Source: Cycas panzhihuaensis (taxonomy: Eukaryota > Plantae > Cycadophyta). From it: a stretch of 64,000 nt of DNA. Location: the NCBI GenBank assembly GCA_023213395.1, contig CM041465.1:2790001-2854000 (forward strand), read 5' to 3'. The notes under the pieces were generated by a model. The model saw only the letters and a list, made by a program, of their open reading frames with translations, was not told where the DNA came from and searched no databases. The translations under genes and the position numbers were made by a program. Positions 3,086 through 60,833 of the stretch are shown in pieces; the first letter of the stretch is position 1, and each line of letters begins with the position of its first letter.

Positions 3086-3086
3086 G

Positions 3087-6647: not shown

Positions 6648-7159
6648 AAAGTCCTGGTAATAATAAACAATAACGAAGCGAAAAGAGGCTTGAAAGGCAA
6701 GCAATAAATAACCGTGAAGGGTAGGAGGACCTAGCAATGAGGCTACCCAAGGACGAGAGCAAGCTAACCGACCACTGCTTGAGAGCAGGCAGAAAAGGTA
6801 CCCTGGGGTACCAAAGGTTGCTTCGGGAAGTAAAACATGCCCCCAGACTGGGGAGCACTCCCACTAGAGGCCCCAGGAGCAGAAAAGAGCTGCGGAAACG
6901 GGTCCGGGATGGCGAAATAAGCCAAACGAGTATAAACTTAGGCATGCACTGGGGTGGCATGTAAAACAAGACAGAAAGACCCTGCAAAAAAGTACAATGA
7001 CAAGGTGCCATAAATGCACTCACAAGAAGGAGCGAAAAGGAAGCTATAGGAGTGCAATGGGAGACAGGGCTAGAAGACAAAGGTGATCCAGGAAACGGGA
7101 TGGTCCAGACGGCTGTCACGAGAGCAAAAATAGAGACAGTGCCTGTCAGGGTCCCCACC

Positions 7160-7166
7160 TATATAA
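7160..7166 (+). promoter_or_regulatory. TATA box of the antisense PMD gene, in near-palindromic CCTATATAAGG
   Basis: TATATAA about 165 bp upstream of ATG 7327 in a CpG-retaining segment. Confidence 0.6.
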
Positions 7167-7326
7167 GGAAATTCGACAGAAAACAGATTCATTTTCACCG
7201 ACTCTCGAGAGAATCCAGAGCGATTTCCTTACGCAGCGGAGTGCTACCCGACTACGGAGGCACGCAGAGGGAGATCAGACCATTGGATCAGAGCACGAAG
7301 ATAGCCATTGAGACCATCAGAGTGTG

Positions 7327-9755: not shown

Positions 9756-10354
9756 TTATGCATTTGATTTTGACAGGGGAAAGCATGGGACTCCAGGGGG
9801 TCATATATATAGAGTCATATGATTGTACCCCCCCTGCAAGGACACCGGCTTCCCATATGTATGATATAACATATGATTTTGATGTGTATATATATAGACG
9901 GGGTAATTGGCGCCCCATTTTGATATGAGATGATGTGTATATCATGTGTGACAGATGATATGTATGTTTTATTATGTATGTTATAGATTCTTTGTTATAT
10001 GATGCACGTATTTCCTTCCATGCATGGCCGTATATCTAACAGGAGCACACGCGACCACCATGAGTAAAGGCGATAGACACATGTGGGGTTAGAAATAGGG
10101 TGACACGTATGTCCATGGAGGAGCATAGCAGGATATGTGAAGGAAATACTAAATGAGAGGGGGGAGTAACGATACTCCAGAGAGTCATCCTAACTGGGGG
10201 GTGCCCAAATATGAAGACAAGAGTCCCAAAAGGATATGGGAACACAGGTTCCACAGGAGGAACCAGAAAGAAACGGAAGAGGCCATCCTAAGTTGTCATT
10301 CCACCTATGGCTGGGAGAAATGGGAACAACTTAAGATGGTAGTTTAGGCTCATT

Positions 10355-24800: not shown

Positions 24801-26953
24801 GTACAAGCTTTTTCTTCTAGATAAGGAAGTATAGGATCTGACAAGAGTTTATAAAGATCATTACATCTGATTCCTTTTTCAATAATTTTCCCACCTCTCT
24901 TCATGTCTAGAATATGACAATTCCCTTCTTCATCGAAAATGGTTCTCAACCCTTTTTTGCTTAATTGAAAAACAGAGAGGAGATTCATTTTTAGATCTGG
25001 TACAAATAGAACATTTCCAATTATTTTTTCATTCCCATCCAGATTTACTGAGATAGTTCCAATCCCTTTTATATTAAGGGAATACTTATCACCCAGTTCC
25101 ACTGGTTTGTCCATATTGTAGGGTTTCATGGTTTCAAACCATTCTTCCCAACTTGTCATATGTTTAGAAGCTCCTAAGTCTATGTACCATATGTCTTTGT
25201 CTTTCATACCGGTAACTAACGCTATGATGAAAGCTGTCTCTTCTTCCTCCTCCTCTTTGTCCTTCTCTTTACTGTAGCCTCCAATGGGTCACTTTCCTTT
25301 CTGAATTTCACTTCGTCTTTGTGGACATTGATATGGATAGTGTCAACTTTATCCATAATAGTAGCAAATATCAAAGATTCTGCAACTGCTGGCAAAGTGC
25401 CTGGTTCTTCCACAGTTGTAACAGACCCTATTTTCTCTGCTCTATCCTTGCCCTCTGGAACTTTGCCAGTGTCCTCGTCCTCGGAAGTCTATTGTTCTAC
25501 TTTGTCCTTGAAATTATTATCTCCCTCTTGGCCCGAGATTCAGTCTAGACGTAAATGCATCCTCCAATTCTATCGTATTTTCATACCTTTTGTTTCTCTA
25601 TTCTTGTCTAAGCAACAATCCTGTCAATTCATCAAGAGTTAACTTGTCTAACCTATCATTGTCTATGATAGTATTGATAATTGTGTCAAATGACTTTGGT
25701 AACCTTGCAGTTACAATTTCTACTAGGTCTTGTTCATAAATTAAACCTCCAGCACTTAAGAGATTATTTCTGACAATAATAATTTTATGCATAAAATCCT
25801 CTACCTCTTTATTTTCTTTCATGTGAAGCTTGTACAGTTCTTCTTTGAGTGCAATTATTCTTGCCTTATTCTTTTGTCCATATAAGTTTTCCAAGCATTT
25901 CCATATTTCAGATGCCAAATTTAATTTTTCCACATAGACTAAAACTGAATCTGAAATTGACATTTTCAATGTGAGACTGGCCATATTATTTCTTTCAATC
26001 CAACTTCCTAGCTTATCATCACCAACTGGAGGATGTTTTTCTGTCCCTTCAGCAATTTCCCAGGTATTTTTCACCTTCAAAATTATTTCTAACTTGATTT
26101 TCCACACATGATAGTTAGAACTAGTTAATTTTTCTGGTTCAGGCAGAGAAATGAGGGATGAAGATATTTTCATCAAGTCAAAAGACAGAGTTTAGAGCCT
26201 GTCTGTACAGCTGTACAAATTTCCATACAGAACCCTAGGTGTATGGCTTAAACAAGAAAATACCTCAAAGGAAGGTAGAAGAGAGAAAACTACTCCAGAA
26301 GGAAAAATGGTAGGTAGGGCAGAAAATTAATCTTTGAATATGGATGCAAATTCAATGTATTGATACTAAGAAGGGTTTTTGATTGGAAATACCTGATATT
26401 CTAAGAAAATCGTGAAGATTTTTGAGATGAATCCTCCAAAAATGTGTGGACTAATTCAGGCTTGATTTGGCCTTGAAAATGACCTCAGATGACTTGGATC
26501 CAGAAGAGAAATGTACTCAGCGTGCTTTGATCTACCTCCCCACCAAATTTCATTGCGATCTAACACTTTTGAAAAAAACTCATCCGTACAGGTCCGTACG
26601 ATTCCGTATGCCAGAGCAATGATGAAGCAGATATCCTAACTACCTTGTCTGTTTCTTCTATCCTTGATGGAACTTCTAGACAGGAGAAATTTTTCAAAAA
26701 AGATCAGTTTGGGTGACTGCTCGATACCATGATGAAAAGCAGCAAAGACCGATCCGAATTAGGCAGAGAAGAAGTGTATTTTACATTGAGATTCAACCTT
26801 CTTAAGTATACATCAACAATGTGATGGTTACAACCTCTAATGTAACCAATCACTCTGATACTGCCAAGTGGCATCATCTTACACTATGACTATATTGAGT
26901 GTGGTCTTAACATGACCCCCTTTCATACCTAGATAAAACATTATATCTTAACA
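21813..26953 (-). mobile_element. Full-length Ty1/Copia, 5.14 kb, short LTRs
   Basis: LTRs 21813-22038 and 26730-26953 (TG...CA); TSD TCAAC; PBS TGGTATCGAGC (Met, 1-nt deletion) 26719-26729; PPT AGAGGGGG 22039-22046. Confidence 0.97.
22046..26176 (-). pseudogene. Copia gag-PR-INT-RT-RH polyprotein with stops and frameshifts
   Basis: gag UBN2 (25598-26176); WYIDLGASKHM protease; WHLRYGH...CKGC; HTDICGP, SDGGGEY integrase; KARLVAKG, LYGLKQAPRAW, VYVDD RT; CDNQSAI, TKHIEVHHHFIRE RNase H. Confidence 0.95.
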
Positions 26954-38216: not shown

Positions 38217-38539
38217 TGTTGGAGTGTGTGATGCTAATTATCTCAAGGAAGTCCTCTTCCCAAATCACTCTGGTTCTTTTGGTGTAATGGCGGCCCATGA
38301 CAACTGGTATCAGAGTAGCCAGGGTTCAAAACTGGTCATTTGTATCATGGTAGCACACTCAGACATACATGAAATTGGGGGAGTCACCACCGAGGAACGT
38401 CGTGGTGGACATGCATGTTGTGTAGATACAACCAACTCCTCATGATAGGGGAGTGTTGGAGCGTGTGACACTAACTATCTTAAGGAAATCCTCTTCCCAA
38501 ATCACCCTGGGGATTTTGGTGTAATGGTGGCCCATAATA
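38217..38539 (+). mobile_element. TRIM (terminal-repeat retrotransposon in miniature), 323 bp
   Basis: 86-bp LTRs 38217-38302 and 38454-38539 (about 13 differences); PBS TGGTATCAGAG 38305-38315; PPT ATAGGGGAG before the 3' LTR; TSD AGAGA. Confidence 0.95.
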
Positions 38540-41039: not shown

Positions 41040-44000
41040 TTTAGAAGAAATTCACCCTCATCCTTTATTGATCATTTGCTAAGTCCTTAAATACATCTTC
41101 AGGAGTACGAGACCAATGGAAATCACTTAATGAGATGATGCCACTTGTCATATTAAAGAAGAAATGGGAAGATGATACATGATCCTTACTAGGGACCTAG
41201 ATAAAATATTAATCTAGATAAAACATTGCCTTTTACACCCCCTCTTAATGTTTTATCTATTTTAGTCCTTAAGGCCAATAAAATTTTCTCTACTAAGAGG
41301 TTTGGTAAGAATATCTATAATTTGATTTTCTAATATACAATGTTGAACCTTAACTTCTTTGTTCTAGACTTTTTCTCTAATGAAATGGTGATGTACTTTT
41401 ATATGTTTGGTTCTTGCATGCAACACTAGATTCTTTGTCATTTTTATTGTGCTTTGGTTATCACAAAATAACTAAGATGACATTAACTATTCTTGTCCAA
41501 GGTCTTTAAGGAGTTGTTTCGTCCAAACTCCTTCACATGTTGCATTGATAGATGGCTTGTACTTTTCTTTTGTTGAAGATAAAATAACTATGTGTTACTT
41601 TTTACTACTCTAGGAGATTAAAGTTGTTCTTAAAAGAAAGGAAATATCATGATGTTGATTACCTATATATTCTGTCTTTAGCCTAGTCTGAATCATAGTA
41701 ACCTATTAGTTATATATTGTTATCCTTTTTATATTCTGGTCCAAGTTTCATTGTTCCCTTCAAATATTGCTGAATTAATTTTGCTACATTCTAGTGAATT
41801 ATTTTGAGATCTTCTATAAACCTGGAAACTACACCAACTACATAAGATATATCTGGTTGTATAGGTGTAAGATAAATTAGATTGTTAATTAGTTGTCTAT
41901 ATAGAGTTGTATCAACTGATTGAGCTTTCTATCTGTGTCTAACACACACCCAATTTCCATTGGAGTGGTGACATTATTACAGCTTTATGTATTGAACTTA
42001 TTTAATAGGTTTTTAACAAACTTTGATTGTGATAAGACAACAGGTCCATTATTTTTTCTTATTTCTATTCCCAGATAATAATACAGCATCCCAAGGTCTG
42101 TCATTTTAAATTCCTTTTCAAATTACTTCTTGATGAAGACAATTAACTTTTCATCATCTCCTGTAATCAACATATCATCCATATACACTACGACGATGAA
42201 GATTAGCCCTTGGTTAAATTTCACATACAAGCTAGGATCTGATTCACACTTGTAAACGTCATTTTGTGTTACATATGTATATAGTTTGGCATACCAGGCT
42301 CTTGGGGCTTGTTTGAGTCCATACAAGGCCTTTTTTTTCTTGCAGACTAGATTTTCTTGACCAGGCCTTATATATCCTTTAGGATGATATATATATACTT
42401 CTTCTTGGAGATTTCTGTTTAAAAAAACCCTTTTGACATCCATTTGATAAATTTTCCACCCTTTCTGAGCAGCAACAACAATCACTATTCTTACAGTATT
42501 TAGCTTGGCTACTAGTGAGAATGTTTCTTCATAGCCAATTCTAGTCGCTTGTGTGTAGCCTTTTGCTACTAATCTTGCTTTGTACTTCTTAATTTCTCCA
42601 TTTGGATTTTCTTTTACTTTATATACCCATTTGCAGTTTATAATGGGTCTATCTTTAGGATATGTTACTAGATCCCATATTCCATTTTTATAGATGACTT
42701 GTATTTCTGCATCCATAGCTATTCTCCAAGCTTAAGATTTGCTTGCTTCTATGTAAGTTTTTAGCTCAATTGAGTATACCAAGGCTTAGGGCTTCTAAGA
42801 CATTATTTGATGTTCAAACACCTCTCCTCTTATTTCCTCAAGAGTTTTGAGGTACCATTTTGGTATCTTTTTGGAGACTAATTCCTATGATGAACTGGTT
42901 TCTTCATCTTCTAGATGAAGACTCATATCACTTGCTTGTTGGATATCAAATGGATGAATACTGGAATCATTTGTTTGTTGAGTATCAGATGATGAAGTAT
43001 CACTTTTAATTTTGATAGAAGTAATATCAAATGTATCTTCTGGTGGAACTATTTTAATGTTTTGATCACTGACATTTGTTTCTTGGTGCTTAGCTTTAGT
43101 GATTCTTTTCTTTTCATTAAATATTACATCTCTACTTACATAGAGTTTGTTTGTCTTGGGATCAAGACATCAATATGCCTTTGAACGACTGTTATATCCA
43201 ACCATTATATATTCTATGCTTTTGTTATCTAGTTTGGTTCTTTTTTATTGTGAATATGTACATATGCTTTGTAATAAAAAATTTTAAGATGACTTACATT
43301 TGGTTTATGGCCTGTCCATACCTCTTCTAGTGTTATTTCACCCAATTCTTGAGTTGGACTCCTATTGATCAAGTATAGAGCTGTGTTTACAGACTCTACC
43401 CAATATTTTCTTATGACGTTGTTTTCACTTAATATACACCAAGCCATTTCTAAAATTGTTCTATTCATTCTTTCTGCTAACCCATTTGATTATGGTGTAT
43501 ACGGGGTTGTGACCTATCTACGGATTCCATGCACTTTACAGAAATGGAAAAACTCATTGGACATGAACTCGCCACCCCCATTTGATTGAACACATTTAAT
43601 TTTCTTGTTTCCTTATAGCTCAACTTCTATTTTAATTTTTTTGAAATAATCGAATGCTTCTGATTTTCTAAACAAAAAATATACCCATGTCTTTTTAGAA
43701 AAGTCATAAATAAAAGTTAGGAAGTACCTTGCTCCATTTGTTGAAGTTGGTATGAATGGACCACATAAATCAGTGTGAATTAGTTCTAGCTTATCTTATG
43801 TATGCCATGTACCTTTTGAAAAAGGAATCCTATGTTGTTTTCCCATCATGTAACTTTTACATATAAAGGAATTAAATTGAATGTTAGGCAGACCATTTAC
43901 CATCTTCAATTTTTTTAGCTTTTCTAGTCTATGATGAGAGGTATGACTGCACTTCAAATTCCACATTTCATTAGTATCATTGTTTATCACAACAAAAGAA

Positions 44001-46272
44001 TTTACATCAGAAGTAGATATTGTAGGTCCTTTATTTGGCATCACAGGAGTGGAGAGAAGTTTGTATAGCCTATTACATTTTTCTCCTTTAGCTATTACAA
44101 CACCATTCTTTTTCATGTCAAGGATATAATGGTGCCCATTTTCATCAAATATTGTTCTCAGTTTTTTTTCGCTTGACTGAGACACTGATAGGAGATTCTT
44201 CTTCATTCCTGGTATGAAGAAAACATTGCCTATTCATTAGATTTTTCCATCAATATTTATGGCAATTTGTCCTATTCCTTTTATATGTAAAGGAAAGTTA
44301 TCTCCCAATTCGACAAATTTATTAAGATCATATGGTTGAGCACTTCAAACCATTTTTCAATTTCAGTCATGTGATATGAGGCTCTTGAATCAATGTATCA
44401 GTTTTCTAGTCCATTGGAGCTTGCTGTTAATACTGCTATGAAGGTTGTTTCTACTTCTTCTTTTGTTGAGTCTCATTCTCTGTTGTAGTTTTCGGACACT
44501 TGCTTCCCTTTTTGAATTTCAATTCTTCTCTGATGACATTGGTATGGATAGTGGTCTGGTTGTCCGCAACGGTAACATATGTCAAAGGCTTTATAGGCAC
44601 TTGAAAAATGACATGGTTTGCCATAATTAAAACAAACTATGACATCACGTGGTAGATTTGTAATAGTTCTTCCTCATCTTGCCTTTAGTCCAATGACCTT
44701 GGTAGCCACTTGTTACTCTTCCTCATGTTTTGAGGTTATACTGATCTCATCCTTGACTTTGCAAATGAAGTTTGGTGACAAGTGCTTCTTCAATTTCCTT
44801 GTCTTCTTCATATCTCTAATTCCTCTTCTCTTAACTGAGCATGTATCCTATAAGAGTATCAAGGGTCATTGTGGTTGTTTATCCTCCACCTGTCAACATG
44901 TTTACCATGTTATCAAATGATTTAGGAAATTTATTGAGCATAAGATGTATTAACTTAGTATATATATTATTTTATCCTCGGCTGTAAGAAGTGTAGTTTT
45001 AATGTTTGTCAAATCAATTATGAAGCTGGATACTATTTGGCCTTCTTTCATCCTAAGCTTATAAAGTTCCTCCTTGAGTGCAATAATTATGCCTTCATTT
45101 TTTTGATTGAACATGGAGGATATTATTTTCTAAATTTCATGAGCATTCTCAACACCATCTACATAGACTAGTAGGGGATTAGAGATTGAAAGTTTAAGGA
45201 CAAATACAACAAGATTGTTTCTTTCTTCCCAATTCAATAGATCATCTCTGTTAGTGGGTTATTTTTCATCACTAGTGGTGATTTTCCAGGCACGCTTTAC
45301 TCTTAAGTGGCCCTCTATCTTAATTTTCCAAATACTAAAATTCAATTTAGTCAACTTGTCATCTTCAACCAATGATCTAGTAAAAGAGGCCATGATCAAC
45401 AAAAATTTTAATTTTTGTGTGCAGAAATGAGGTTATACGCCTTTATGGAAGGCTATACAGATTTCCATATGGAATCTAAAGTGTACGGATGAGATAAAAT
45501 AAGGTGTCAAGTAAAAGATCAATCTGGTGTTAAATTTTAAAAACTCTCTCAGATTTAAGAGAAATGACACCAGAAAGCTCCAAACTTGTGCCCTTAGGTT
45601 TTTGGGTATTTTGATAAAAAATTCTCAAAACAAGAGAAAAAACTAGCAATTTAGGACTTGATCTCTTTAATTTCAGATGAAGAAGGTTTTAGATACTTAG
45701 TACCCAACTTTTGTCTTGAATTTTTGAGAAACTTTGAAGGAGAAGTCTTCTAAACCTATGTGTAGAGAAATCTGGCCAAAAGTCCATCAAAAAGTCTTTA
45801 AATCATGATAGTCCAAAAGAAGAAAATGTTGAGGAGACCCTGATCTATGATCTAGACAAGTTTCATTAGATTCTGATGACTTTGGTTCTTAACATCCATA
45901 CAATTCCATACAGTTCCATACTCTGAACCGAACATAAGAGGAGCTATGTCTAATACTTTGATGAATCTCTTGGACTCCTTAGACTTCCTCAATTTCCTTA
46001 ATCTAATGCTTCTCTAATTCCCAGAACCCTAATTCTCTTATAGACAGAGGGACTCACCAGCCTGCTCTGATACCATGTAGAAGAAATTCATCCTCATCCT
46101 TTATTGATCATTTGCAAGTCTTTAAATACATCTTCAGGAGTACAGGATAAATGACAACTGCTTAATGAGATGGTGTCACTTGTCATATTGAAGAAGAAAG
46201 GGGAAGATGATACATGACCCTTACTAAGGACCTATATAAAACATTAATCTAGATAAAACATTACCTTTTACA
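41040..46272 (-). mobile_element. Full-length decayed Ty1/Copia, 5.2 kb, related to the 21813-26953 family
   Basis: LTRs 41040-41237 and 46076-46272; TSD GTAAC/GCAAC; PBS TGGTATCAGAGC 46064-46075; PPT AGAGGGGG; RT ORF 42123-42716; integrase ORFs 43229-44206. Confidence 0.95.
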
Positions 46273-47295
46273 GCAACATCAAGAAGGACTATTGGGAATG
46301 GTAGTGTTAATAGCATAAAAAATAATAATAGAAACTCCAATAATAGAGACAATAGTGGCAATAATAATAATAACTACCTAGATAAGATGGTCATGTCTTA
46401 GATGCAATAGATAATACACCTACCAAGATTTCAACATGTTTGTTTGTTACAATATATAAAATAGATTTGAATATATAGGATGTCTAGTTCATCAATTTTG
46501 GTACATCATAACACATGATTGTAAGGATAGAATGGTTCTTTTAAATGTGAGAGGTATATCATAAGGTGACCTTTAGGAATGACATTAATTTAGAGGCTAT
46601 AAGAGTAGGAAAATTTCCAATCATCATGCCAAATAAAGAATAATAATATCTAGATAATGCTTTATACATACCAAATCTAAATGCCAACATTGTTTTAATT
46701 GGAAAGATTGAATAATAAGACATGACTGAGATGGTTATTTAAGGACAGTGCATGGTCTAAGGCAAATACAATAATGTTGTAACCAAGGGACTAAGAGAAA
46801 ATAACTTATATAAACTATAAGGATACTCTTATGTTTAAATAATTCCTATCTATATCTCCAAAATAGAAGCTATGGCATGGGCAAGTGGGTCATTTAAATT
46901 ATATAAGTCTCTAATTAATACATAAATTAAAAATGGTGTATGGTCTTCCCATGATAGATAATAAAAGTTATTTGTATAAACCTTGTAGATTTGAAAAATA
47001 ATATAAAGAGACCTTTGTAATGAAGAAGACATGGACAGCCAAAAAGAAATTAAGATTAGTTCACTTAAACATTTGTGGACCAATGCTTGTCATTGAAGTG
47101 AGATATTTTATCATATTCATTAATAAATTTTCATGGAAAATTTTGATCTTTCCATTCAAAAAAAAATTACAAGTCTTTACTTGATTGAAATAGTTCAAAA
47201 TTTTAGTGGAGAATAAAAGTGGCCTAAAGATTAAGGTTCTATAAATTGATAATAGTGGAGAATACACTTCAAATATATTTATATAATTCTACAAA

Positions 47296-50200
47296 AATAT
47301 ATATCTAATATTTAGTGTGATCTTGTGGACTTGTATAAAATTTTACCCATCAAAAGCATTGAGAGATGTGATATGAATGCTTATTCACATATACATCCTA
47401 TTAGATGATGAAAAAACTTAAAATATATTGTAGGTTATTCATGAGATGACATAATCTATAAATATATATACACATCATTTAAGAACTTATGGGAGGAAGG
47501 ACTCACTTCGAGATATAATTCATTTGATATCATAAAGAGGAGATCCCAACTCTAACCTTCTCTCGTGGTTTTTTCGATCTTAGGTTTTCTATGTATAAAT
47601 CTATTATTTATCTTATAATGCATGCTTTGTTATATTTATAGTTTATGAATCATGTTATTGCTTTATATATTCATCTTATAATATATGATTTGTATGTATT
47701 CCTTAGAATTTGATTTATTCATTATGTATGTTTGATATACTTTCATTACAAATAATAACTACATTCTAATATGGTATTTGAGATAAATTCTAAATTCCTA
47801 TATGGTATTAAAGCCATATTGTGAAAGATATTGTGAAGTATATTAAAGCATATATGAGCTAGGTGATGAGCTAGATGAGCTGATAGTTGAGTCAATTATA
47901 GATCTAGTGATATAACTAATATAAGTCAATATAGAAGCTAGTACGAGGAGAGTTTTGATGAGCCAAAACTTAATTATGTAAATGATATATAACTAAAATC
48001 TTAGGGTAAGATGAAGATGTTTGAAAGCCATATATAGATGATGATAATAAGGTTGATGGTATGCTAAAATTTAAATTTATTATAGATAATTATTTTAAGT
48101 ATGTTGTGTGCTATTTCTATAGACATACAACTATTAAATAAGTCCATTGAATGTGACATGATGAGGAGAATTATTGCTAGTTATATTTACTGATATAGTT
48201 TAGCTTCCTATATAAGTGATTGAGATTTTATGAGATTGACCATCTCACCTAATATTCTAATTAATAATAGTATATATACTTAATTAAAATATATTTTGAG
48301 ATACATAAGAATTCATTCCATTAGTGAATGATTAACGTAAAATGGGCAATAGTCATATACTAATAGATGTAGAATAACCTATAAGGTATGTGTCATTAAG
48401 CAAATATAATATTTTGATACATTTAATCAAATTTAAATCTTTTATGAAGTTCATTAGAAAGACCCTAAGCCATTAGTAATTAGTCACATGGAGGAGCTAG
48501 TACAATTAGGAGACCAACCAAAAAGACCTTAGAAATAGTTCTTATTTGTATATCATTTATTTCATGATATACAAATAATTTTTTGAACATAATATTTCAC
48601 TAAAGTGTCTATTTTTTAAACCATTAGTTATATTAAAAAGAGAATTTTGAGAATATTAAAATGAGTAGCCATAAGGCATATTTTAGAAATCAAAAGATAA
48701 AAATTTTAATGGGTAAATTTGAGCAAAGTATTTATGACATAATAAATATTACATTTATTGAGTAGTTTCATATATGATTTGGCATATTTTAATGTTTTTA
48801 AGGCTCATGAGGTCATGATAATATATAATGATGATTGTTGAAGAAAGAAAAAGTAAGTTTGGTTTAAAATTAACATATAAAATCTTATTTATAATAGTTC
48901 AAGGCTCAAAACTGATGAAATTTTGATGTGGAAATTTTTTAATACACATTGGACATAATACAAATCCCCCTTGGCTCTTATTTCATATAGTTTAGTGGAT
49001 GTATAACACTAGTCAAATGCCATGTTTGGTTGGTTTATTGCATACTTGTTTGAATGAATGGAATTAATGACACCACCTATTTTATATTGATAAAAGGCTT
49101 AATTTGTTTATAGCATTTGTTTGTTAGAGAGATAAGTTAATGATATCATTTTCACTTATTTATAAGACATGGAGAAGAAGTATCATATATTGATTACTTA
49201 ACACATCAAATTTAATTGTTAAGGTCATCTAATTGATATATGATATCCATTTATCAATGAGAAATCTAACTTGCTATATATGACATGAGGAATAAAAATG
49301 CACCATTTACATTACCTTATTATAGCTACCTTAACTCGTCTAAGCAATACACTTTATTCCTAGAGTTAGTATCTTAAATTTATTGATTTGATTATGTTGA
49401 TAAGATTATTAGTTACTAAAAGAAACTTGCAAAGTATATGTACATAGATGGAGGTAACACATAAACTATTTATTTATATGCAAGAGTCAAGATGAATTAG
49501 GCTATTTCTATATAATACACAGATTGTATTATTATTCTTATATGTAAGAGGCAAGAAATTTTATGCTACTCTTGTAAAAATATTTTGCTAAATAGTTAAG
49601 TGTTATTTTTTACATGAACAAAATTGATGATTATAATAACTTTACAAATAAAGATATGATGGTCTTCAGTATAACACTTTATATAAATATGATAAGTAAA
49701 AGCTATATATATTAGTTAATGCTTGGTGGATGATTGAAGTTAGTATATAGGTTTTTATAAGATTGGTTATTCTTAGTTAGTTACTAATGATCATAAATGA
49801 TTACAAATGTTTACAAGTTAATTACTTACAGGAAATAAGCATGATATTGATAGATTTATAGTTTATAGGCAATACAACTTTATTCAAATTAATACAACTT
49901 AATATAAATTAATACAAGTTTACAAATTCTAACATACAAGGAAATCATGAATATTGAAGACTAAGCTTGAAAACATGAAGATTATAAATTAAAGATGTTA
50001 AATATTAAAGAGAAGTCTTGGAATCTGTGATATTTTTATATATTTAATATTTAATATTATATTATAAGCCCACATAAAACCCCACTTACTAAAAGTATTA
50101 AGAGATATAATATGCACAATTATTTAAGTATACATTCTATTAGATGATGAAAAGGCTCAAGAGTTATTATAGGCTATTCATGATGTGACATAATCTATAA

Positions 50201-50541
50201 GTATATATATACACTATTTAAGAACTTAAGAAAGTAATAACATACTTGGATATATAATTAATTTGATATCATAAAGAGGAGCTCATAACTCCAACATTCT
50301 CTTGTGGTTTGTTCTATATTAAGTTTTCAACATGTAAATTTGTTATCTATCTTGTGGTGCATGTTTTGTTATGTTTATATTTTATGATTCATATCATTGC
50401 TTTATATGTTTATTTTATAATACATAATTTGTGTATATTCCTCATGATATGATTTATTAATTATATATGTTTGATATACTTTAGTTGTATATAATGATTA
50501 TATTTCAACATGGTATTAAATTTAAATTTTAAATTTTTACA
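47296..50541 (+). mobile_element. Old non-autonomous LTR element (LARD-like) with LTRs of about 500 bp
   Basis: Diverged direct repeats ~47296-47802 and ~50016-50541; decayed PBS TGGTATTAAAGCC 47803-47815; purine run before the second repeat; no intact ORF. Confidence 0.75.
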
Positions 50542-52411
50542 TGACAAATTAACAATGATGGAGAATATACTTTAAATGAATTCACCTAGTTCTACAATAA
50601 TCATGGGATCAAGAGGTTGTTTCCTACTACCTATACACCTCAACAAAATAGACTTAATAAATAAATGAATAGAAATTTGGTTAAAAAAGCCAAAGACATA
50701 ATATAAAGAAAGGATGTAATAGATTTATTATGGGCAAAAGACATAAATACAATTTCATATATAATAAGCAAGAGCACTACTAGGGCTATTAGAAATATAA
50801 CACCTAAGGAGGCTTAGTTAAGTAGGAAACCAATTATAAGTCATCTTAGAAAATTTGAATGTATAATATACATTCATATTCCTTTGGAGAAATTATTAAA
50901 TTTTTATGATAAAAGCATAAAGTATATCCTTATTAGTATATAATCTTTTAGGAAGATAAGGTTTAGAATGTTGGTTGAACTGATATTGAGGATTTGCTTA
51001 AATAAAGTTCTTCATATGACATTATTCAACTAGAGTATAAGTTATTTAATAATGGTGAAACAATAAAAGTAGAATCCTTCTAATTTTTAAAAGTTAATTT
51101 TAAGTAGAAATTAAAGATAAAGATAAATTTAAAGCCTAAGCTAAAGAAACTATCACATACAAAGCATTCACCATCATCTTTAAAGAAGAAGCTTCGAAAG
51201 TGGTATTTAGAAACCATGGAGGATGTTAAGAAGTTATTACCTAAATTTAAGAGAAAGTAAAAATAAAAAAATGTGACCCTCTAAACATGTAAATATGGCT
51301 CTTATGGCATGTGTATTAGATGTAAATAAACTATATATAATTGAAGAAGTACTTTAAGAGAAGAAGTAGCATGATGATGTGAAGATTAAAATCTAAGTAA
51401 TCAAGAAAAACCGTACATGGGATTTGGTAGAATTATTTGTTGGTAACTAGGAAATTAGAAGCAAATGGATTTATAAAACCAACTTTAAATTTGATGGATC
51501 TATAGAAAAATACAATGTATGGCTTTTTGTGAAATACTTCAAGTAATAATAAGGGATTGACTACTAAGAGAAATTCATTCTGGTTGTAAAGATGAACACC
51601 ATTCATTTCATTATGGTGATAGCTACACAATTTAATTAATAGCTATAGTAGATGGATGTAAAAATTGCACTTTCAAATGGGCATTTAAATGAAGAAGTCT
51701 ACATGGAGAAGCCACTTGGCTTTATTAAAAAAAGTTATAAGCATTTGATATGCTAACTTAGGAAGTACTTTTATGGCCTATAATACGCTCCTAGAGCCTA
51801 GTATGAAAAGATTAATTAGTATTTTTAAAAGAACGGGTTTGAGATATCTCTAGTTGACTTAAACTCATACATGAAAGCAAAAAATGATAAAACATATTTA
51901 TGGTGTTATATGTTGATAATCTATTGATCACAGGTAATGATATTAATATGATATTATGCTTCAAGGTATATTTTAGTCATTACTTTAAGTTGATTGATTT
52001 ATAGATTCTATACTTCTTCCTTAGAGTGGAAGTATGGCAAAGGCCTGAGTATATCTTCATCTCATAGGCAAATTATACTTTTAAGAAATTCTAAAGAAAT
52101 TTATAATAGAATATTTTAAACCTATGCCTAACCCCATGGAGATAGTTTCTATATTGATAGTGGAAGATGGTAGAGTAGATGTTAATTCTATATTATATAG
52201 ACAACTAGTGGGAAGTCTAATATACCTAATCACTACTTGACTTGATATATCTTATGTAGTTAGAATGGTATCCAAGTTCATAACAATGTCAAAATAGGAT
52301 CATTAAGAAGTTACTAAATAGATCCTTAAATACTTAAAAGGGATGATTTACTATAGATATATATTCTAACATAATGATAATGTTAAGTTAATATGATTTG
52401 TAAACTCTAAT

Positions 52412-55400
52412 TGTTAAATTAGAGAGTAGGATCATATAATATATGTGCATATAATTATATCAAAATAAAAGTAGGAAACAAGATAAACATAATATATTTA
52501 TGCAAATGTCTTACAAATAAGTGTGATAGGTAAATTGATTACATCATGAAAATATATTTTGGTAGAGCTTCCACACACTAAAATTTAATCTTACAAATTA
52601 GGGGGATTGCACTTAATTTATAATCATTCTAAACTCAAATATAATAATGTGATTGGTTAACATAACAAGCCCATATTATTAACCCATTATATGACAAGTG
52701 GATGGACTTGACCTTTTTTAAATATAATTTAATTATATAAAGAGGGTCTTACCTTATGTCATAATAGGTACATAATATATAAAAAATATACTATAGTAGA
52801 GATGTTGTTAGATATTTTAACACCCTCCCTTAATGATAGATTTATTTGTTATAATACCAAGGTCATAATAAAACCATTCAAACTTTGATCTCCTAAGTGC
52901 TTTAGTGAAGATATCTGCTCCTTAGTCTCCATCCAGTTAGTACGCTTAGTCAATAAAATCATTAGGAGGTTTCCTCTAGAGAAATTTTTTTATGAGATTT
53001 CTATTTAAGAAGGTGCTCTTTAATACCAAAGGATCTTTATGGTGCTAAAAAATACTATTAGCATGAAATTTTACTTTATAAATCCTTCTACAATCAACTG
53101 ACTTCTTTCTAGGTGGTAAATCTATTAGCTCCTATGTGTCATTCTTAAGGATAGAGTTTATTTCTTCAACCATTGTAGCTTTTTACATTTGGTCTTTGAC
53201 TACCTCCTCAAATGTGGAAGGCTTAGAGGTCTCAAGGACATATGCCATTAAGGTATAGTTGATGGACTGTCTCATTCTAAACTCTTATGAGAGTTATGGG
53301 AGGAGGAGGTGTATCCTTCATCAATTGTTATAGCCACTTAAGAGGTGGTTGAATACTGGTGACATCCACCTAAAGATTTTTAGGAGATATAAGTGGCATT
53401 ATTATAGTAGCATCTGAAGTGAATGTTGAGGCTATTGGAACTCAAGATAGACTTGGTGTGTAGGATGATGTAGATGGTAGTGGCTCAAGAATTGATACAA
53501 GAGGCACTTTAGGTATACTAATATCTTCATCTACTATAAATTAAAGTTGTGAAGGATCCAAGTCATAAGTATTGTCAACAAATATGACATCTCAAGTGGT
53601 ATATGCCTAGTTTCTAATATTGTCATATACTTTGTAGGGTTTACATCTGAGTGCATAGCCAAGGAAGATGCACTTTAGGCTTTTATCATCCAATTTCTTC
53701 GTATTCTCTTTAGGAATGAATTTATAAGTTATACAATCAAATGTCCTTAGGTGATAGATTGTAGGCCTTATGCCTATCTAATCCTCAAGAGTGATGTCTC
53801 TAACTATTGCCATGGTACTTCCATTTATGAGATAAGCAATAATTGACATGGATTTAGCCTAAAATCAAGTAATAAGATTAATAGGAATCAACATGGCTTT
53901 TACCTTATTCACTAATATTTGGATCATTCTTTCTATTACACTATTTTGTTAAGGTATATATGGGGATAAGAATTGGTGTTTGGTTCCATATTATCCATAA
54001 AAGTTGGTGAATAGTTAGATGTATTCAGATTATCAGATCTAAGCACCTTTATGTTCATGTTGCTTTTATTTTCCACCTTAGCCTTAAATTCTTTATGATG
54101 GCGCCCGACGCCTCCCCGAATTCTCTATTTAAGGGTTGGGAATACCTCCCCGGTGTTTATTAGATGAGAATAGATAGTTTTCAAACAGATGCCAATTTCT
54201 CAAATGAATAATAAATCTTCAATGTAAAAAAACTTCTTTTTATATAAGAACAACTTTTATGTATTGCCTTATAAACAAGTGCTTATTTAAAATAATGTAA
54301 AGTGCTTGTAGAAAGATCAAGCAAAAACTTGAGTAAACAAGAAAATATGAACTAGAATTTTCTTTACAATTTTTGAAAGAAGACAAGCTTGTTAGGATAT
54401 ATATATATGCTCAACTTTAACAGATTGAAAACTATATTGAATGAGGTCAGAATAGCTTAAACTTTTATCAATATGTAGATTGCTGAGATGCGAATCCAAT
54501 AAAATAGACAGTTTTGAAAATGGATACCAATAAGTCACGTTTTGAATGAGGCAAAGGAATGGACCTCCTTATGGAGCCTAACAGGAGCAGGGTAGGCAAA
54601 AATTGCATAAAAATACTAATTAATCCTTAGAAAAGTTGAACAAATGATCAAATATTATTGATGAAGTAATTAATATTCTGCCAATTAAAAAATTTTGAAA
54701 GAATATATTAAACAGGTGTAGAAAAAAGCAGATTTAGGCCAATAAAATACCTCAACTTTAGCTGATTTGAAATATAAGAAAAATGTGTCAAAATATATGG
54801 AAAAATATATCACAATGAAGAGAAATGAGTCAGCTTCCCAACGAAGCTAACGGAAATGAAATCTGATAAAAATTGCAAAAAGTATAGTGAAAAATGTAAC
54901 AAGTGTCTTTATGGATAATGTTCAAGAAACAGGCAAAAACAACTAAATTTCTTATTTTAGCGATTAAAATATTAGTGAAAATGAACTCAAAGAATTGAAA
55001 TTAAAAATGGGTATTAAAGTCTATATGACGTAGATTGCTATAGAGAAAATTTGGACACAAAATAGTTTACTAGAAATAAATGACAGCCAGTTCTAAAACC
55101 GATTTTGGTAAAAATGCAAAAAATGCTGAAATTTCAAAAGTCCAATGTTAAAAAGGTCGAAACAAGGTCAAATGGGCACCAAATTGGTATTATGACCAGT
55201 CGAAATCAATCTACAGAAAATTTGTGATCTATTGGCGTAGGTTTTGTCTGAAACCGATGAGCCAAAAAGACGTTATGGCCTCAAAAGCGCCAATAACCCT
55301 ATGGAAAAGTAAAATTAAAAAAAAAAAAAAGTTTAAAATTGAAAAACACTTATTAAAAAAGTGTTTGAGAATGGATTGCGCTGGGATTGAACCCAAGACT

Positions 55401-58400
55401 AGTCAGGAAACAGAAACCTCTGATGCCAGGAGGGTGAACTCGCTCGTTGAGTTTAAAACAGAACAGAAACTATGAAAACCTGAAAATCAGAATTGAAAAC
55501 ACATACAAAACGATTTAATGAATGAATTGAAGGCGATTTCGTGAACGCAATAATATGAAACAATGTAATCAATGAATAAGGCAAACGAAATAGCAGCAAT
55601 CTAATCAATAAATAAGGCGATTTACAAGGCGAATATAATCGCACACGAAGAAAGGCGATTTAAATAGCAACGCAAATATATATAACGTGATTAATGATGA
55701 ATATGAATATGAATATGAAGGCACGAACGCCAACGCAAATATATAACAAATATAATGAATATGAAGACGGCGATTAACGCACAATAAATGGGGATTTAAT
55801 GACGCACAAAGGCGATGAAAAGAAAGGCGATGGCGATTATATCAACGCAAAAGGAAAATATCACAAAACGGAAGATCGATTGTATGGATGATGGAGCCGA
55901 ATGCAATTCAGCCGAGCCAGAACGGGTGCTATGTATTAATGGACTGTGTATTAATGGTCCCAAAGGCGATTAAATAAAGTAGCAAGGAGCAAGGGCGGAA
56001 TGCTCAAACGGAGCTGATCGACGCAAACGACGAGGAATGGCAACGCAGAACAGGCAGACGGACGCTAGGCGGCGGGACGCTCCGTAAGCTAAAACGCGAG
56101 CGAGTCACGGAGAGTCAAACGGGAACAGGAATGAGCATAGACAAAGCTGGAGCTACGCAATCAATGAAGCAGAGCAGCGGATCAATATATATATGCAACC
56201 GAGTATACTAGTGCGTGAACACAGTATTAAAAAGGAAAATGAAACAATAATGAGAGATACGCGCCGATTCAGTAGGCTAACACGGAGACAAAGAGACGTT
56301 TGCAGAGAGGATTCTATGAGCCTGTATGGTGGGAGGCGGTCAAGGAAGCAGCTGTGCGCCACACGCCACAGAGAAGACGCAATAATGCAAATAACAGATG
56401 CAAGTTTCAGAGATAAATAGAATAGCTATATGTGTGCTGAGATTAATCTAGCATAGAGGATCACAACAAACTACAAGTATATCATGCTAATGCAGAGAAT
56501 GCATAGAATAAAAGAATTATATATATGGTTAGATCAAACCAATACAGAGAATCGCAAACCACAAATTTATCAAGCTAAAACATATATCAAAAGGTTTATT
56601 TATTTGTTTGTATGTTCAAAATATAAAAACGGAAACGAAGAACCTGGTTTGAGTGCAAACTTTCGAGCGGGAGATCTTTCTTCACAGTGGATGGAATCCA
56701 GATCCGTCTTCTCCAGCGGATAGGTGAGCTCGCCAGAATCTCAACGGCGATCATATAGCTATGTTCCGCCAGACATTTGAGCAACTAAAACCAGAAAATA
56801 GACAACGTCGCTCTGATACCAAATGATGGAGCCGAGGAGCGAGCGAGGACATCACGACGTTCTCATCTTGAGTACAACGGCAATTTCAATAGAGTGGCGG
56901 TGTTAATAAACACCGTGGAGGTATTCCCAACCCTTAAATAGAGAATTGGGGAGGCGTGGGCCATCACCCTAGTACCTGACAATTAAGGTTAGTTTGAAAA
57001 ATATAAAAAATAAATAGCGGTGATACCTCACATGAGTGGTCGGTCCAAGGCGGTATTATTAAACGGCTCAAGGTGCCCTAGGGGCCCTCAAAGGTGGCTT
57101 TGAGGGGCCCTAAGCGCTCTAGTGCATGAACATTGGGATTATTCCCAACACTTTAAACTTGTCAAAGGCTTAAAATTTATTTTTAAGAAAGTAGACTCAT
57201 TCTCTTTTGGAATAATCATCAATAAAGGTCGTAAAAAATAGGTTCCCATTAAGTGATAGAATTAACATAGGCCTACAAATACCTGAGTGGACCAATCTCA
57301 ATGGTTCTAAGGTTCACCATGCTTTCTTTAATGGAAATCATTCTCTATGCTGCTTGCCAACCAAGTAAGCCTCATAAATACAATTGTTTCTATTGATCCT
57401 TAAAAATCCATGTACCATATGTAGCCTATACATGAGGTTTAGGCTCTACATATTTAGGTGACCTAGGCATTGGTGCCATAATTGGTCCTTGGTACTATTG
57501 GAGGAGAATTTCTCTTTAGAATATGAACATTCACCTTGAACTTGTTCAAGGGGTGGATCTTTAACTATGATTGATTTCCCTTTATTAAAGTGATTATTTT
57601 GTGCTATAGAATAAGACTCTTATACTAGAATAGTAGTGAGGGGAACTCAATCAAGTTTGTATAGTCTACTATCCTCATGTCCTATGACAACTAGTTAACC
57701 TCTGGCATGATATATAATTATGCAGATGTCTTAGTTGAAGAGAATGTCTAGGATTTGCTTGTTAATTTAACTAATTAATAGTAGGTTTGTTTCCATACTA
57801 AGCATAAGAAAAATATTGTTGATATAATGGGGGATGTTTGAATCCTTGACAGCAATGGGGGCCCTTCCAATCTTGGTCATATCATACATGAGATTATCTC
57901 TAAATGTAATAGTCTAGGCCCTTATTGGTTGTGTCTCCTCAAGTAGATCTTTGGTACTGATCATGAGAGGTACCAAAACTAATTAACTAAGAATTATCAT
58001 CATATTAAGATGATAAGGTTGCAAAGAATAAGTTTTAGGAGGTGTCTTGAGTATTAGCAGCATGGCCTCCTTACTATAAATTCTTATTGTTCCTTGGGTT
58101 TCTTAGTTGGTATCTTTACCTGTTTACTTGGCATTAGTTCTAATTCTACCTCTAGTTCTTATTCAATTAGAAGTTTTAGCCTCCTTACTATGCACTATGG
58201 CTTTGAAAGATTTGTATATCAACTTATCTTCATCTACAATCAATTACAAGGTGCCTATTTTTGCTACAATATATGCATGTTATATTTTTTCTATGCTACC
58301 AATTTTTTAAAGGCTAAGATTATTGCGACTGTTATGGCTATTATAGCTATTGGGACTATTATGACTATTGAGAGATGTTTAAAGAGCTAAATTATTGAGA

Positions 58401-59110
58401 AAGGGGTTATTGATGAGTTCACTACTAATATGGTTGTTGAAGTGGCTAATTCCTTTCTAGATTTCTTATTACAAATGTAGAAGCAAAGTCAAAAGTGGAT
58501 GCCACTCCTTGGAAATTGAGTATATTCTCCTCCATGAGCAAGAGTCCTTTAAAGATATTAAATTCCATTTTAGGAAAGGTATTATAAAGTCTAGATACAA
58601 AATTTTTATATTCAATAGGAAGGATATTGAGAATACTAGACACTAGATCATGGTCAAAGGGAGGTTCACCAAAGATAATAAGTTGGTTTCTAACTATTTT
58701 AATTTTAGTAAGATGGGTCATTATGGCACAAGTAAAGGGTATACTAATAAGGTGAGATTTTAAAGTAAGAGACCTTAGGTTATATTTTCTCTCATAAAGG
58801 GAGTATATGATGCTCCAAGCCTCATGAGAGGTTTCAATAGTTTTTATATTTTGATCCACTTAATCTTCTATAGCCAAGTAGAGGAATGAAAGGACTATTT
58901 GATCCTTAGCTTTAAAAGCTACTAAGGTAATTAGATCTAGTGTAATTTTTGGGCTAAAGTGATTAGGTCTTGTGTGGGTGTAGGTGGAACTATGTCCCCA
59001 TTAACATAGGCCCAATAGTTATTCATAATTAAGAGATTTTTACCTTACTGTTTTTTAACTAAAAAGTTGTTCATGCCACTAAGTTTGATTATATTATACA
59101 CAAGCATTTA
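52412..59110 (-). mobile_element. Decayed Ty1/Copia with internal RT/RH deletion; 3' LTR 52412-52822
   Basis: TGTTAAA...TTTAACA LTR, PPT AGGGAGGG 52823-52830; ADIFTKALG joined to the RT N-half near 52925; integrase 53.6-54.09 and 57.15-57.5 kb; gag ORF 58446-58859; 5' LTR not identified. Confidence 0.8.
54096..57150 (-). mobile_element. Non-coding 3,055-bp LTR-derived insertion with PBS and inverted terminal repeat
   Basis: TG...CA ends; perfect TSD CTTTA (54091-54095, 57151-57155) splitting the host integrase 'DKFK|EFKAKVEN'; PBS TGGTATCAGAGC 56810-56821; inverted repeat 54096-54162 / 56904-56966. Confidence 0.9.
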
Positions 59111-60833
59111 AGCTACTATTTTTAGTGTGTATTTTAGTATCTTATCTACTCAAGGGGGCTGCTAAACTATAATGCTAAGTCTAAGGGTCTCTAGGAAGCC
59201 CTCAGTTACTATTTTATCTAGTGGAACTTGCCCACAAGTGGTAAATCAGGAACCTTATATACTAGTATGTGATCTTTAAGCTTTATATACCTTAGCATAT
59301 GGGCTATTAAGAAGGTTAAAGAACCCCCTAACTTGTTTATCAACCTGCATTAGTCTTATGCCTAGTATTAGATCTAGTTAGGAAATAAAAACCAAGGTAC
59401 TTACCCCCTCTAAGTCTAGCCTAGTCTCCAAACTTCAAGATAAGGTTTTATACCTCGCCCTACCACTTAATATATCTTATAGCTAGCAGGCTTCTCTAAT
59501 ATCTACAGAATTTGATAAGGACAACTAATATATATAGAGTGGTAACTTTAAGGGTCCTAACCATTTCCCTTATAAGGATGCAAGTTGATGTGTAGATTAG
59601 GAGTTATCTTTTTAATCATTTAAGTTGAAATAAATTTTAAAATGTGTTATTATTTAAGAAATAGGGTTCTTTTTATGAAATAAGAGTAAAAATACTAAAA
59701 GAAAAGTAATAAATTAAAGGAAATAGAAGGGTTTAGGATGCTCTTTAGAGGACTTTACTTCCAAGAGAAGATCAACCTCCTTCATATAGGAAAGGCACTT
59801 ACAATCATAATGCACAAATAAATGTTAGCAAAAAACCTAGGTAGGACAACAAATAAGGTGTAAAAAGCTAGCATTTAGTAGATATATCCTTTGTAAAATA
59901 AAAACTAAGATTTTAATTTATGAAAAAATTCTTATTACAACCTAAATAGAATGATATACTTTAGCTACTAAAAATCTGTTGAATAACTACTTGAAATTAA
60001 CTAAGACTAGCTCCAAACTGTAGGCCTTTGAACTAAGAATCCAATAGTTTAAATGGTGTGCAAAATAGACCTCTTGTTAAAACGTTATGGCAGAAATAGT
60101 GCATGGTACTCTTTATGAATAAAAAATTAAAATGAGGTGGCTTAATCCCCCTTTAAAGGTAAGCCCCTAGTCTCAAAGGATCACTATATGACCACCTACT
60201 AGGCTACTGAGGGGCTACAAGATCCAAAAATGATTTAAATATAAAATAAATTTTTTAATTAATAAAAAAGTTTAAATTTAACTTATTAAATTTTGGCATC
60301 TACCTCCATTTTGAACTAAACCCCTCAATCACATAGGATTAGCATATGATCTCTAGTGAGTTGAAAAGGACCTTTGATAGATTTGAAAAGGATTATAATT
60401 AGATTTAATCAAATATAGACTATAGAAAATATAGATTTCAAAAATAAGTAATTTCCATAGCTATGTGTAGGATTTTCTGAAGTGCAGTGAACATAGTCAA
60501 TTAAATCAAGTCAAGTTAGAATTAAGCGACTTTAAAAACATGACAAAGACTTTCACAAAGTGACGTAGAGGAGATCTAAGGAGAAATAGGATTGTGTAGA
60601 GATTGTACGGTGTCATGAGGGTTGATGGAGGGCGTGGAGGATCCATGACTCTCAGATATTGATTTTATTGATCAAATAACATTATAAAGGCTTTATTCTA
60701 CTATAGAATCATTCAAAAGGGTAACGTAAAGGGTAGGCAAAAATTTGGAAGTGAATCAATCACTAGGGAGTAAGGTTTAAATTAATCAGTCATTAGAAAA
60801 TAATGAACAATGGTTTAATGACATTCAAATGAT

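What the first reader, a model, noticed from the sequence alone, without database searches (positions are those of the whole stretch)
54096..57150. Integrase-type insertion with a PBS but an inverted, not direct, terminal repeat
Seen: TG...CA ends and a perfect 5-bp TSD. On the minus strand a 327-bp LTR-like block (57150-56824, TGTTGG...CCATCA, TATTTAA box) precedes TT-TGGTATCAGAGC and 2.7 kb of non-coding DNA. There is no PPT or second direct LTR. Instead the far end (54096-54162) is the reverse complement of 56904-56966, with a 44-bp core at 43/44 identity that includes the TATA and supplies a terminal CCATCA. Segment 56824-56966 is itself bounded by TGATGG...CCATCA, and GTTGGGAATA is shared by the repeat and the right terminus. 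Inference: either a non-autonomous retroelement with inverted ends and convergent promoters, or a 3-kb solo LTR whose U3 carries a U5/PBS mimic and U5-complementary arm (RNA cyclisation, cf. the bipartite PBS of Ty3), or a one-off template-switch product.
Basis: partly seen in the sequence, partly recalled or inferred. Interest (0 to 1): 0.8.

Follow-up and report, generated by a model that had tools for sequence, protein, structure and literature searches.

The report
Broken retrotransposon with a flipped patch
This is a 3-kb remnant of a very abundant plant LTR retrotransposon, sitting inside an older one, whose missing back half is replaced by a 67-letter flipped copy of part of its own end repeat; it is likely a one-off copying slip rather than a new kind of mobile element.

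Summary
The anatomy is real: TG…CA ends, CTTTA target duplication splitting an old Copia integrase, a 327-bp LTR with tRNA-Met PBS, 2.65 kb of non-coding leader, no PPT, and a 67-bp inverted arm copied from LTR positions 185-247. Public contigs from related plants argue against a family feature. Contigs on the arm run on as ordinary LTR interior at both sides (4 of 4 runs). The leader runs on into other sequence where this copy switches to the arm. Depth falls sharply at that junction, and none of 32 listed pieces crosses it. The arm matches the TATA region (likely U3), not U5, so RNA cyclisation is not supported. The arm starts at a hexamer identical to the LTR's own 3' end, and the junction carries a further 9-mer from the LTR: the signature of microhomology template switching. 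Best reading: a one-off derivative (about 0.8), made after insertion by host replication or repair (0.45) or during reverse transcription with a cryptic end (0.33). No genome or long reads were available, so a low-copy family (0.1) or assembly chimera (0.07) is not excluded. Interest 0.17.

The parts
54091..54095 (.). Left copy of the 5-bp target-site duplication (CTTTA)
   Evidence: empty-site joint 54090>57151 in three runs
57151..57155 (.). Right copy of the target-site duplication (CTTTA)
56824..57150 (-). 327-bp 5' LTR (TGTTGG…CCATCA) of an abundant family
   Evidence: summed contig depth in the tens of thousands at both ends of it in X1 and X4
56934..56940 (-). TATA-like box TATTTAA (LTR 211-217); function inferred
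56961..56966 (-). Internal TGATGG (LTR 185-190), the inverted repeat of the LTR's last six letters, 131 letters apart; start point of the copied arm
   Evidence: chance of such a hexamer 5% in shuffles
56860..56868 (-). LTR 283-291, AGATGAGAA: only other occurrence nearby of the 9-mer that spans the arm/leader junction; likely second template hop
56810..56821 (-). Primer-binding site for initiator tRNA-Met (TGGTATCAGAGC), two letters after the LTR
   Evidence: tRNA assignment recalled
54165..56809 (-). Non-coding internal leader, cut short at 54165; high-depth ends with a low-depth, repeat-like variable middle (about 55518-56476)
   Evidence: no Pfam match in six frames; depth profile; other contigs run on past 54165
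54096..54162 (+). 67-bp inverted arm: copy of LTR 185-247 with the TATA-like box facing inward; supplies the terminal CA
54162..54170 (+). Arm/leader junction AGATGAGAA; its last six letters are shared by the LTR and the family leader (microhomology)
57149..58859 (-). Host: old Copia element, gag (58446-58859), pre-integrase and first part of the integrase core (57149-57301)
   Evidence: PF14223 E 3.5e-12; tblastn
53015..54090 (-). Host: second part of the integrase core (53781-54011) and start of RT (53015-53182)
   Evidence: tblastn; each side translated separately

Best explanation
This is a likely one-off derivative of an abundant plant LTR-retrotransposon family with a tRNA-Met primer site, in which a copying polymerase likely jumped templates at short shared words and so replaced the coding region and nearly all of the 3' LTR with a 67-bp inverted copy of LTR positions 185-247. 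Shown: the termini, TSD, nesting in a Copia integrase, the arm's source, and that listed family contigs do not have this junction. Inferred, step by step: (1) a normal two-LTR element integrated and made the CTTTA duplication; (2) later a host strand entering from the left flank copied the last six letters of the 3' LTR (TGATGG on the + strand) and switched to the opposite strand at the inverted hexamer inside the LTR, as in fork template switching at short inverted repeats or synthesis-dependent end joining; (3) it copied about 60 letters, hopped about 35 letters along the LTR to AGATGAGAA, and used TGAGAA to land in the leader, skipping the rest of the element. The TG…CA ends and TSD then survive automatically. 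With no PPT and no second R region the remnant would not be copied by standard reverse transcription. Confidence that it is a one-off template-switch product by either route is about 0.8; the figure below is for the host route.
For: Family context (runs X1, X2, X3, X7): loose ends before 54096 read as the LTR stretch upstream of the internal TGATGG in 13, 12, 23 and 17 contigs; loose ends behind 54162 read as the LTR continuation in 5, 9, 6 and 6; leader contigs carry other letters before 54165 (3 in X3, 3 in X7; 4 in X4). Summed depth falls from 51,285 to 261 to 62,085 across the junction in X1, 90,889 to 1,934 to 48,598 in X2, 139,629 to 3,128 to 50,426 in X3, 14,843 to 725 to 3,962 in X7. 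None of 32 listed pieces (9 of them inside the element) crosses 54162-54165. In X7, nine contigs run on behind 57150 with a consensus that, on the element strand, ends in a purine tract directly before TGTTGG, as at a normal PPT/3' LTR joint (agreement only 0.5). The arm starts exactly at the hexamer identical to the LTR's 3' terminus. The junction 9-mer recurs once nearby, 35 letters past the arm's end in the LTR (4.5e-5 in shuffles of those 80 letters, post hoc). Deletions with templated, sometimes reverse-complement fillers from iterative microhomology priming are documented in plants (PMC10923293 passages; PMC7156093 passages, which says templates are more often in cis); strand switching at short interrupted inverted repeats is described in yeast (PMC4689423 passages). 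In Triticeae 220 other recombination events against 2 reverse-transcription switch complexes were counted among 400 insertions (PMC1950507 whole text).
Against: The arm differs from this copy's own 5' LTR by three gaps and one substitution in 67 columns, and contigs reaching the hexamer were laid on the arm even when the 5' LTR was available (12 of 13 in X1, 17 of 17 in X7). A cis host event predicts near identity, so one must assume private deletions or consensus errors in the 5' LTR (one search lists several other one-letter gaps there); a trans template is more natural inside a particle. Three hops are needed. No listed contig bridges either element/flank junction or the arm/leader junction, so this exact structure has no read support from other individuals. 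Only 46-53% of X1-X3 was read, only 24 of 137 loose-end rows and 32 of 1,437 pieces were shown, and depth falls near any contig end, so the trough is softer evidence than it looks.
Confidence: 0.45

Rival explanations
1. One-off reverse-transcription slip, integrated whole. A plus strand primed at a cryptic site just before the internal TGATGG (possibly on a co-packaged RNA of another subfamily) switched onto the leader of a second plus strand, giving a linear DNA with the true U3 end on one side and an integrase-site mimic on the other; integrase then made the 5-bp TSD. A variant has the tRNA-primed minus strand switch after its first eight letters.
For: TGATGG matches the true left end TGTTGG at 5 of 6 letters, so integrase could accept it. 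The arm looks like the common family allele rather than this copy's 5' LTR, natural for co-packaged RNAs. TSD-flanked switch products exist in cereals (PMC1950507, whole text). Two unchecked AI notes from other genomes describe 'two left ends' insertions (lead only).
Against: The letters before the internal hexamer (…TACTAGGG) hold only four purines in a row, a poor PPT. The published switch complexes keep direct LTRs; none with an inverted internal start was found in my searches. The extra 35-letter hop still has to be added. Such products are about 100-fold rarer than post-insertion rearrangements in the one count I read.
Confidence: 0.33
2. A rare non-autonomous family descends from such an event and moves with one true LTR end and one inverted internal integrase-site mimic.
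For: Clean TG…CA ends and TSD; CpG still abundant in the element (observed/expected 0.64-1.37 against 0.04-0.05 in the flanks), so it is young relative to its host; the variable middle is shared with a few copies (depth 16-182 in X1). Depth at the junction is low but not zero.
Against: No listed piece crosses the junction in four runs; the lowest junction bin is 0.5% (X1) to 5% (X7) of the arm's peak depth. No PPT and no second R region, so no standard way to regenerate both ends.
Confidence: 0.1
3. Assembly chimera of repeat reads.
For: Very high-copy sequence on both sides of the junction; several one-letter gaps against family contigs near the LTR; no listed bridging contig.
Against: A chimera has no reason to end at CA flush with a perfect 5-bp duplication that restores the host integrase register, nor to carry a 9-mer from further along the LTR.
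Confidence: 0.07
4. Solo LTR of an abundant family whose true LTR is 3,055 bp with an inner PBS mimic and a pairing arm.
For: TG…CA and TSD with no coding sequence fit any solo LTR; plant LTRs reach about 5 kb (PMC6317226 passages).
Against: Contigs beyond 54096 continue as LTR interior, not PBS or varied flanks; the arm/leader junction is not covered at family depth; the leader continues into other sequence. The arm pairs with the TATA region, not U5.
Confidence: 0.03

Closest known systems
Plant LTR retrotransposons primed by complete tRNA-Met (most Ty1/copia lineages and most chromoviruses; REXdb, PMC6317226 passages)
   Same: TG…CA LTR, PBS TGGTATCAGAGC two letters after it, 5-bp TSD, nested insertion.
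   Different: Only one LTR, no coding domains, no PPT; lineage cannot be assigned without RT or integrase.
CRM chromoviruses (PMC3059260 passages)
   Same: LTR ends in CATCA, tRNA-Met PBS, 5-bp TSD, LTR length within the 299-1,225 bp range; the inner block and the arm begin TGATG.
   Different: The LTR begins TGTTG, not TGATG; no polyprotein to test; a leader of more than 2.6 kb was not described in the passages read.
Deletions with templated filler DNA (TMEJ / SD-MMEJ; PMC10923293, PMC7156093 passages) and fork template switching at short inverted repeats (FoSTeS, ODIRA-type; PMC4689423 passages)
   Same: Large deletion closed by a short templated, inverted patch with microhomology at its ends and an internal hop.
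   Different: Here the primer word is the element's terminal hexamer, so the product mimics an integrase end; the route is inferred from sequence only.
Template-switch complexes of LTR retrotransposons (Sabot and Schulman 2007, PMC1950507, whole text)
   Same: TSD-flanked chimera explainable by a polymerase jump between family templates.
   Different: Those keep three direct LTRs and two internal regions; this has one LTR and an inverted 67-bp internal piece.
LARD/TRIM non-autonomous LTR elements (recalled; named in PMC1950507 table)
   Same: Non-coding internal region with PBS, TSD.
   Different: They have two direct LTRs and a PPT; this has neither the second LTR nor a PPT.
DIRS-type retrotransposons with inverted terminal repeats (recalled)
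   Same: Inverted sequence at the two sides.
   Different: DIRS use a tyrosine recombinase and as a rule make no TSD; here the inverted arm does not pair with the terminus, and a 5-bp TSD and PBS are present.

Membership tests
LTR retrotransposon derivative (tRNA-Met primed) | LTR with TG…CA followed by a tRNA PBS | tested here: met
LTR retrotransposon derivative (tRNA-Met primed) | Integrase-type 4-6 bp TSD | tested here: met
   CTTTA both sides; empty-site joints
Intact or non-autonomous (LARD/TRIM) LTR element | Two direct LTRs | tested here: not met
Intact or non-autonomous (LARD/TRIM) LTR element | Polypurine tract before the 3' end | tested here: not met
   no purine run of 10 or more after the LTR
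Parent family as an ordinary two-LTR family | Other copies have PPT + direct 3' LTR starting TGTTGG | tested here: inconclusive
   one loose-end row in X7 (9 contigs, agreement 0.5) shows a purine tract before the LTR start; no full-length copy could be retrieved
Ty1/copia versus chromovirus lineage | RT/integrase phylogeny and domain order | not testable with these tools
   no coding sequence in the element; no plant genome held
CRM | TGATG/CATCA LTR termini | tested here: not met
   LTR starts TGTTG and ends CATCA; criterion from PMC3059260
Solo LTR of 3,055 bp | Whole unit, including the arm/leader junction, recurs in the family and is followed by a PBS in full-length copies | tested here: not met
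   loose ends and depth trough, (partial listings)
Inverted-end non-autonomous family | Many copies with the same ends and different TSDs | tested here: inconclusive
   not seen at family depth; a rare family is not excluded; only one copy in the window
Microhomology template-switch / filler product | Patch templated from nearby or homologous sequence with microhomology at its ends | tested here: met
   arm = LTR 185-247; TGATGG at one end, TGAGAA at the other
Microhomology template-switch / filler product | Ancestral unrearranged allele at the same site | not testable with these tools
   needs orthologous alleles from assemblies
DIRS | Tyrosine recombinase, no TSD | tested here: not met
   5-bp TSD present, no coding domain; family features recalled

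The most novel reading that the evidence does not exclude
A low-copy lineage of non-autonomous LTR derivatives that move with one true U3 end and one inverted internal U3 piece acting as an integrase site, made by a recurring reverse-transcription slip at a cryptic priming site. It would show that a plant retrotransposon can gain inverted-type ends and facing promoters in one step and still be integrated.
Probability: 0.1. Interest if true: 0.6.

Novelty: new member of a known kind. Interest (0 to 1): 0.17.

Why it matters
As a one-off it is a tidy example of how template switching can erase most of a retrotransposon yet leave TG…CA ends and a TSD, so that it passes for a solo LTR or an inverted-end element in annotation. 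The inward-facing TATA could give antisense RNA against an abundant family (untested). It would matter more only if the junction recurs with different TSDs, which would reveal an unusual route of reverse transcription and integration.

Tried and rejected
Whole-genome search: no genome is held for this window. Other copies in the window: none. Pattern scans for the arm/LTR core: 0 hits in metagenome contigs and viral contigs; the LTR start gave 1 metagenome hit, a 20-letter chance match in 51% GC sequence with no further similarity. Expression: no RNA holder listed, which says nothing either way. RAD-seq raw reads X21: 0 laid, no test. Rfam: 0 matches. Pfam on three short element or junction ORFs and six frames: 0 matches. 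Tandem repeats: three short arrays only. Folding of LTR plus PBS: z = -4.1, including a strong U3 hairpin at 57079-57112; no bearing on the arm. Naming the plant group by a neighbouring Copia protein: one distant hit at 39% identity, uninformative. TGGCGCC at 54099 resembles the start of another PBS type (recalled) but is LTR interior in the family contigs, so rejected. A deletion hop through the GTTGGGAATA repeat (LTR 2 and 220) was considered as the arm's origin and rejected: the arm starts 35 letters before that repeat. Earlier scan notes by place and by sequence: nothing. Literature: searches listed no paper on a plant LTR derivative ending in an inverted internal LTR piece; the phrase 'inverted long terminal repeats' had 0 occurrences in the 15 papers listed of 1,072. 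Only open-access text was searched and no supplements were read.
Full report
Observation. The window is repeat-rich plant-type DNA with several decayed Copia and Gypsy coding remnants. It begins TG and ends CA and is flanked by CTTTA on both sides; two random flank 5-mers would agree 0.2% of the time. It interrupts the integrase core of an old Copia element on the minus strand: tblastn places residues 3-56 of a neighbouring integrase at 57301-57149 and residues 82-158 at 54011-53781, with gag to the right and RT to the left, and the two halves, translated separately, are in register with no host sequence lost. CpG observed/expected is 0.64-1.37 inside and 0.04-0.05 in the flanks, so the insertion is much younger than its host. 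On the minus strand come a 327-bp LTR, TT, the PBS TGGTATCAGAGC, and 2.65 kb without Pfam or Rfam matches or any purine run of ten letters. The far end, 54096-54162, is an inverted copy of LTR positions 185-247 (91% over 67 columns, E 2e-19; 43/44 in the core). The arm covers the TATA-like box at LTR 211-217 and what lies before it, so it matches likely U3 up to about the expected start site, not U5.

Family context. No genome is held, so I used public runs. Twenty of 24 listed runs hold part of the stretch, none half of it. Laid on 53600-57700, contigs of X1, X4 and X7 pile up to summed depths of tens of thousands (X7: up to about 12,000) over 54148-55243 and the two ends of the LTR, against about 6-7 for the near-identical flank contigs of X1 and 16-182 over the variable middle of the leader. 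The tool warns that depth is no copy number, but the family is plainly abundant in three coded organisms. Contigs join 54090 to 57151 as an empty site in X1 (2), X4 (1) and X7 (1); these may be paralogous host copies. The RAD-seq run X21 laid no reads. In X7 nine contigs run on behind 57150 with a consensus that ends, on the element strand, in a purine tract directly before TGTTGG, as expected where a PPT precedes a normal 3' LTR; agreement is only 0.5, as a mixture with flanks would give.

The junction test (54030-54270, runs X1, X2, X3, X7). Contigs that reach 54096 continue with the LTR stretch that lies upstream of the internal TGATGG (13, 12, 23, 17 contigs; agreement 0.83-0.98), not with a PBS or varied flanks. 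Contigs that reach 54162 continue as LTR interior (5, 9, 6, 6; agreement 0.63-0.74). Leader contigs carry other A/T-rich letters before 54165 (3 in X3, 3 in X7, and 4 in X4). Summed depth drops across the junction: 51,285 / 261 / 62,085 in X1; 90,889 / 1,934 / 48,598 in X2; 139,629 / 3,128 / 50,426 in X3; 14,843 / 725 / 3,962 in X7. None of the 32 listed pieces, 9 of which lie inside the element, crosses 54162-54165. Limits: 46-53% of X1-X3 was read, 24 of 137 loose-end rows and 32 of 1,437 pieces were shown, and depth falls near contig ends anyway. No listed contig bridges the element/flank junctions either, so this exact structure has no independent read support. The result rules out an abundant family with this end and an abundant 3-kb LTR; it does not rule out a rare family.

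Mechanism. The arm starts exactly at TGATGG, the reverse complement of the LTR's last six letters. Such a hexamer occurs inside 5% of shuffled LTRs, so its presence is ordinary, but the arm starting on it is not. The arm/leader junction AGATGAGAA occurs once more within 53700-57500, at LTR 283-291, 35 letters past the arm's end (4.5e-5 in shuffles of those 80 letters; a post hoc figure), and its last six letters are also the family leader's. This reads as serial microhomology switching. In the favoured route (inferred) a normal element integrated, and later a host strand that had copied the terminal hexamer of the 3' LTR switched to the opposite strand at the inverted hexamer 131 letters away, copied about 60 letters, hopped, and landed in the leader. 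Ends and TSD survive without further assumptions. Templated, sometimes reverse-complement fillers by iterative priming are documented in Arabidopsis (PMC10923293, passages) and wheat (PMC7156093, passages), and strand switching at short interrupted inverted repeats in yeast (PMC4689423, passages). Against it: the arm differs from this copy's 5' LTR by three gaps and a substitution, and family contigs fit the arm better (12 of 13 in X1 and 17 of 17 in X7 were laid on the arm when both places were offered), so the 5' LTR must carry private deletions or consensus errors; one search lists other one-letter gaps there, but I could not settle it. The rival is a reverse-transcription slip: a plus strand primed just before TGATGG, perhaps on a co-packaged RNA of another subfamily, switches to the leader of a second plus strand and the product is integrated through a cryptic end. 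It explains the allele difference but needs priming at a four-purine site. TSD-flanked switch products are known in cereals but keep direct LTRs and were rare, 2 against 220 other recombination events among 400 insertions (PMC1950507, whole text). Two unchecked notes from other genomes describe copies with two left ends; they raised my weight for this rival but were not tested, and here the second end is an internal site, not the left end.

Comparison. PBS type and TSD fit most Ty1/copia lineages and most chromoviruses (PMC6317226, passages); CRM termini are TGATG/CATCA (PMC3059260, passages), met only at the 3' end. Without coding sequence the lineage stays open. It is not a LARD or TRIM (no second LTR, no PPT) and not DIRS-like (TSD and PBS present; DIRS features recalled). 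With no PPT and no second R region the remnant would not be regenerated by standard reverse transcription, which also argues against a family. Searches listed no paper on this exact end structure in plants; only open-access text was searched and no supplements were read.

Verdict. Observation confirmed; interpretation partly supported, in its one-off option. One-off template-switch derivative about 0.8 (host route 0.45, reverse-transcription route 0.33), rare family 0.1, assembly chimera 0.07, abundant 3-kb solo LTR 0.03. New member of a known kind; interest 0.17; 0.6 if the junction proves to recur with different TSDs.

Noticed in passing
window 38217-38535 (+): TRIM-sized element: two 82-bp direct repeats (87% alike) starting TGTTGG, a PBS TGGTATCAGAG at 38305 and a purine tract before the second repeat; no clean TG…CA plus TSD found.
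   Followed up: partly
window 21813-26953 (-): Copia element with 226-bp LTRs 95.6% alike, perfect TSD TCAAC, PBS-like TGGTATCGAGC, and gag, protease-region and integrase Pfam matches.
   Followed up: partly
window 41042-46272 (-): Older Copia with about 196-bp LTRs 89% alike, PBS at 46075, RT and pre-integrase matches; no clean TSD found.
   Followed up: partly
window 46479-51876 (+): Further decayed Copia pol pieces on the plus strand, with a 507-bp duplication at 77% (47298-47804 and 50037-50543).
   Followed up: no
window 1-12000: GC-richer (44-51%), strongly purine-skewed stretch with an integrase core and zinc-binding match at 10934-11518, Gypsy-like.
   Followed up: no
window 57079-57112: Strong hairpin in the U3 part of the LTR (15-bp arms, 93% complementary); LTR plus PBS folds at z = -4.1 against shuffles.
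   Followed up: no
window 55518-56476: Variable middle of the leader with short scattered repeats (GGCGAT, AACGCA, ATGAAT); related contigs differ in the number of units and depth is a thousand-fold below the neighbouring parts.
   Followed up: partly
window 14765-15151 (-): Weak Rap-GAP Pfam match (E 8e-4, 19 bits, below the cut-off of 27) in a low-complexity frame; probably chance.
   Followed up: partly
window 52001-54000 and 58001-60000: Extreme CpG depletion of the host Copia (observed/expected 0.04), lower than anywhere else in the window.
   Followed up: no
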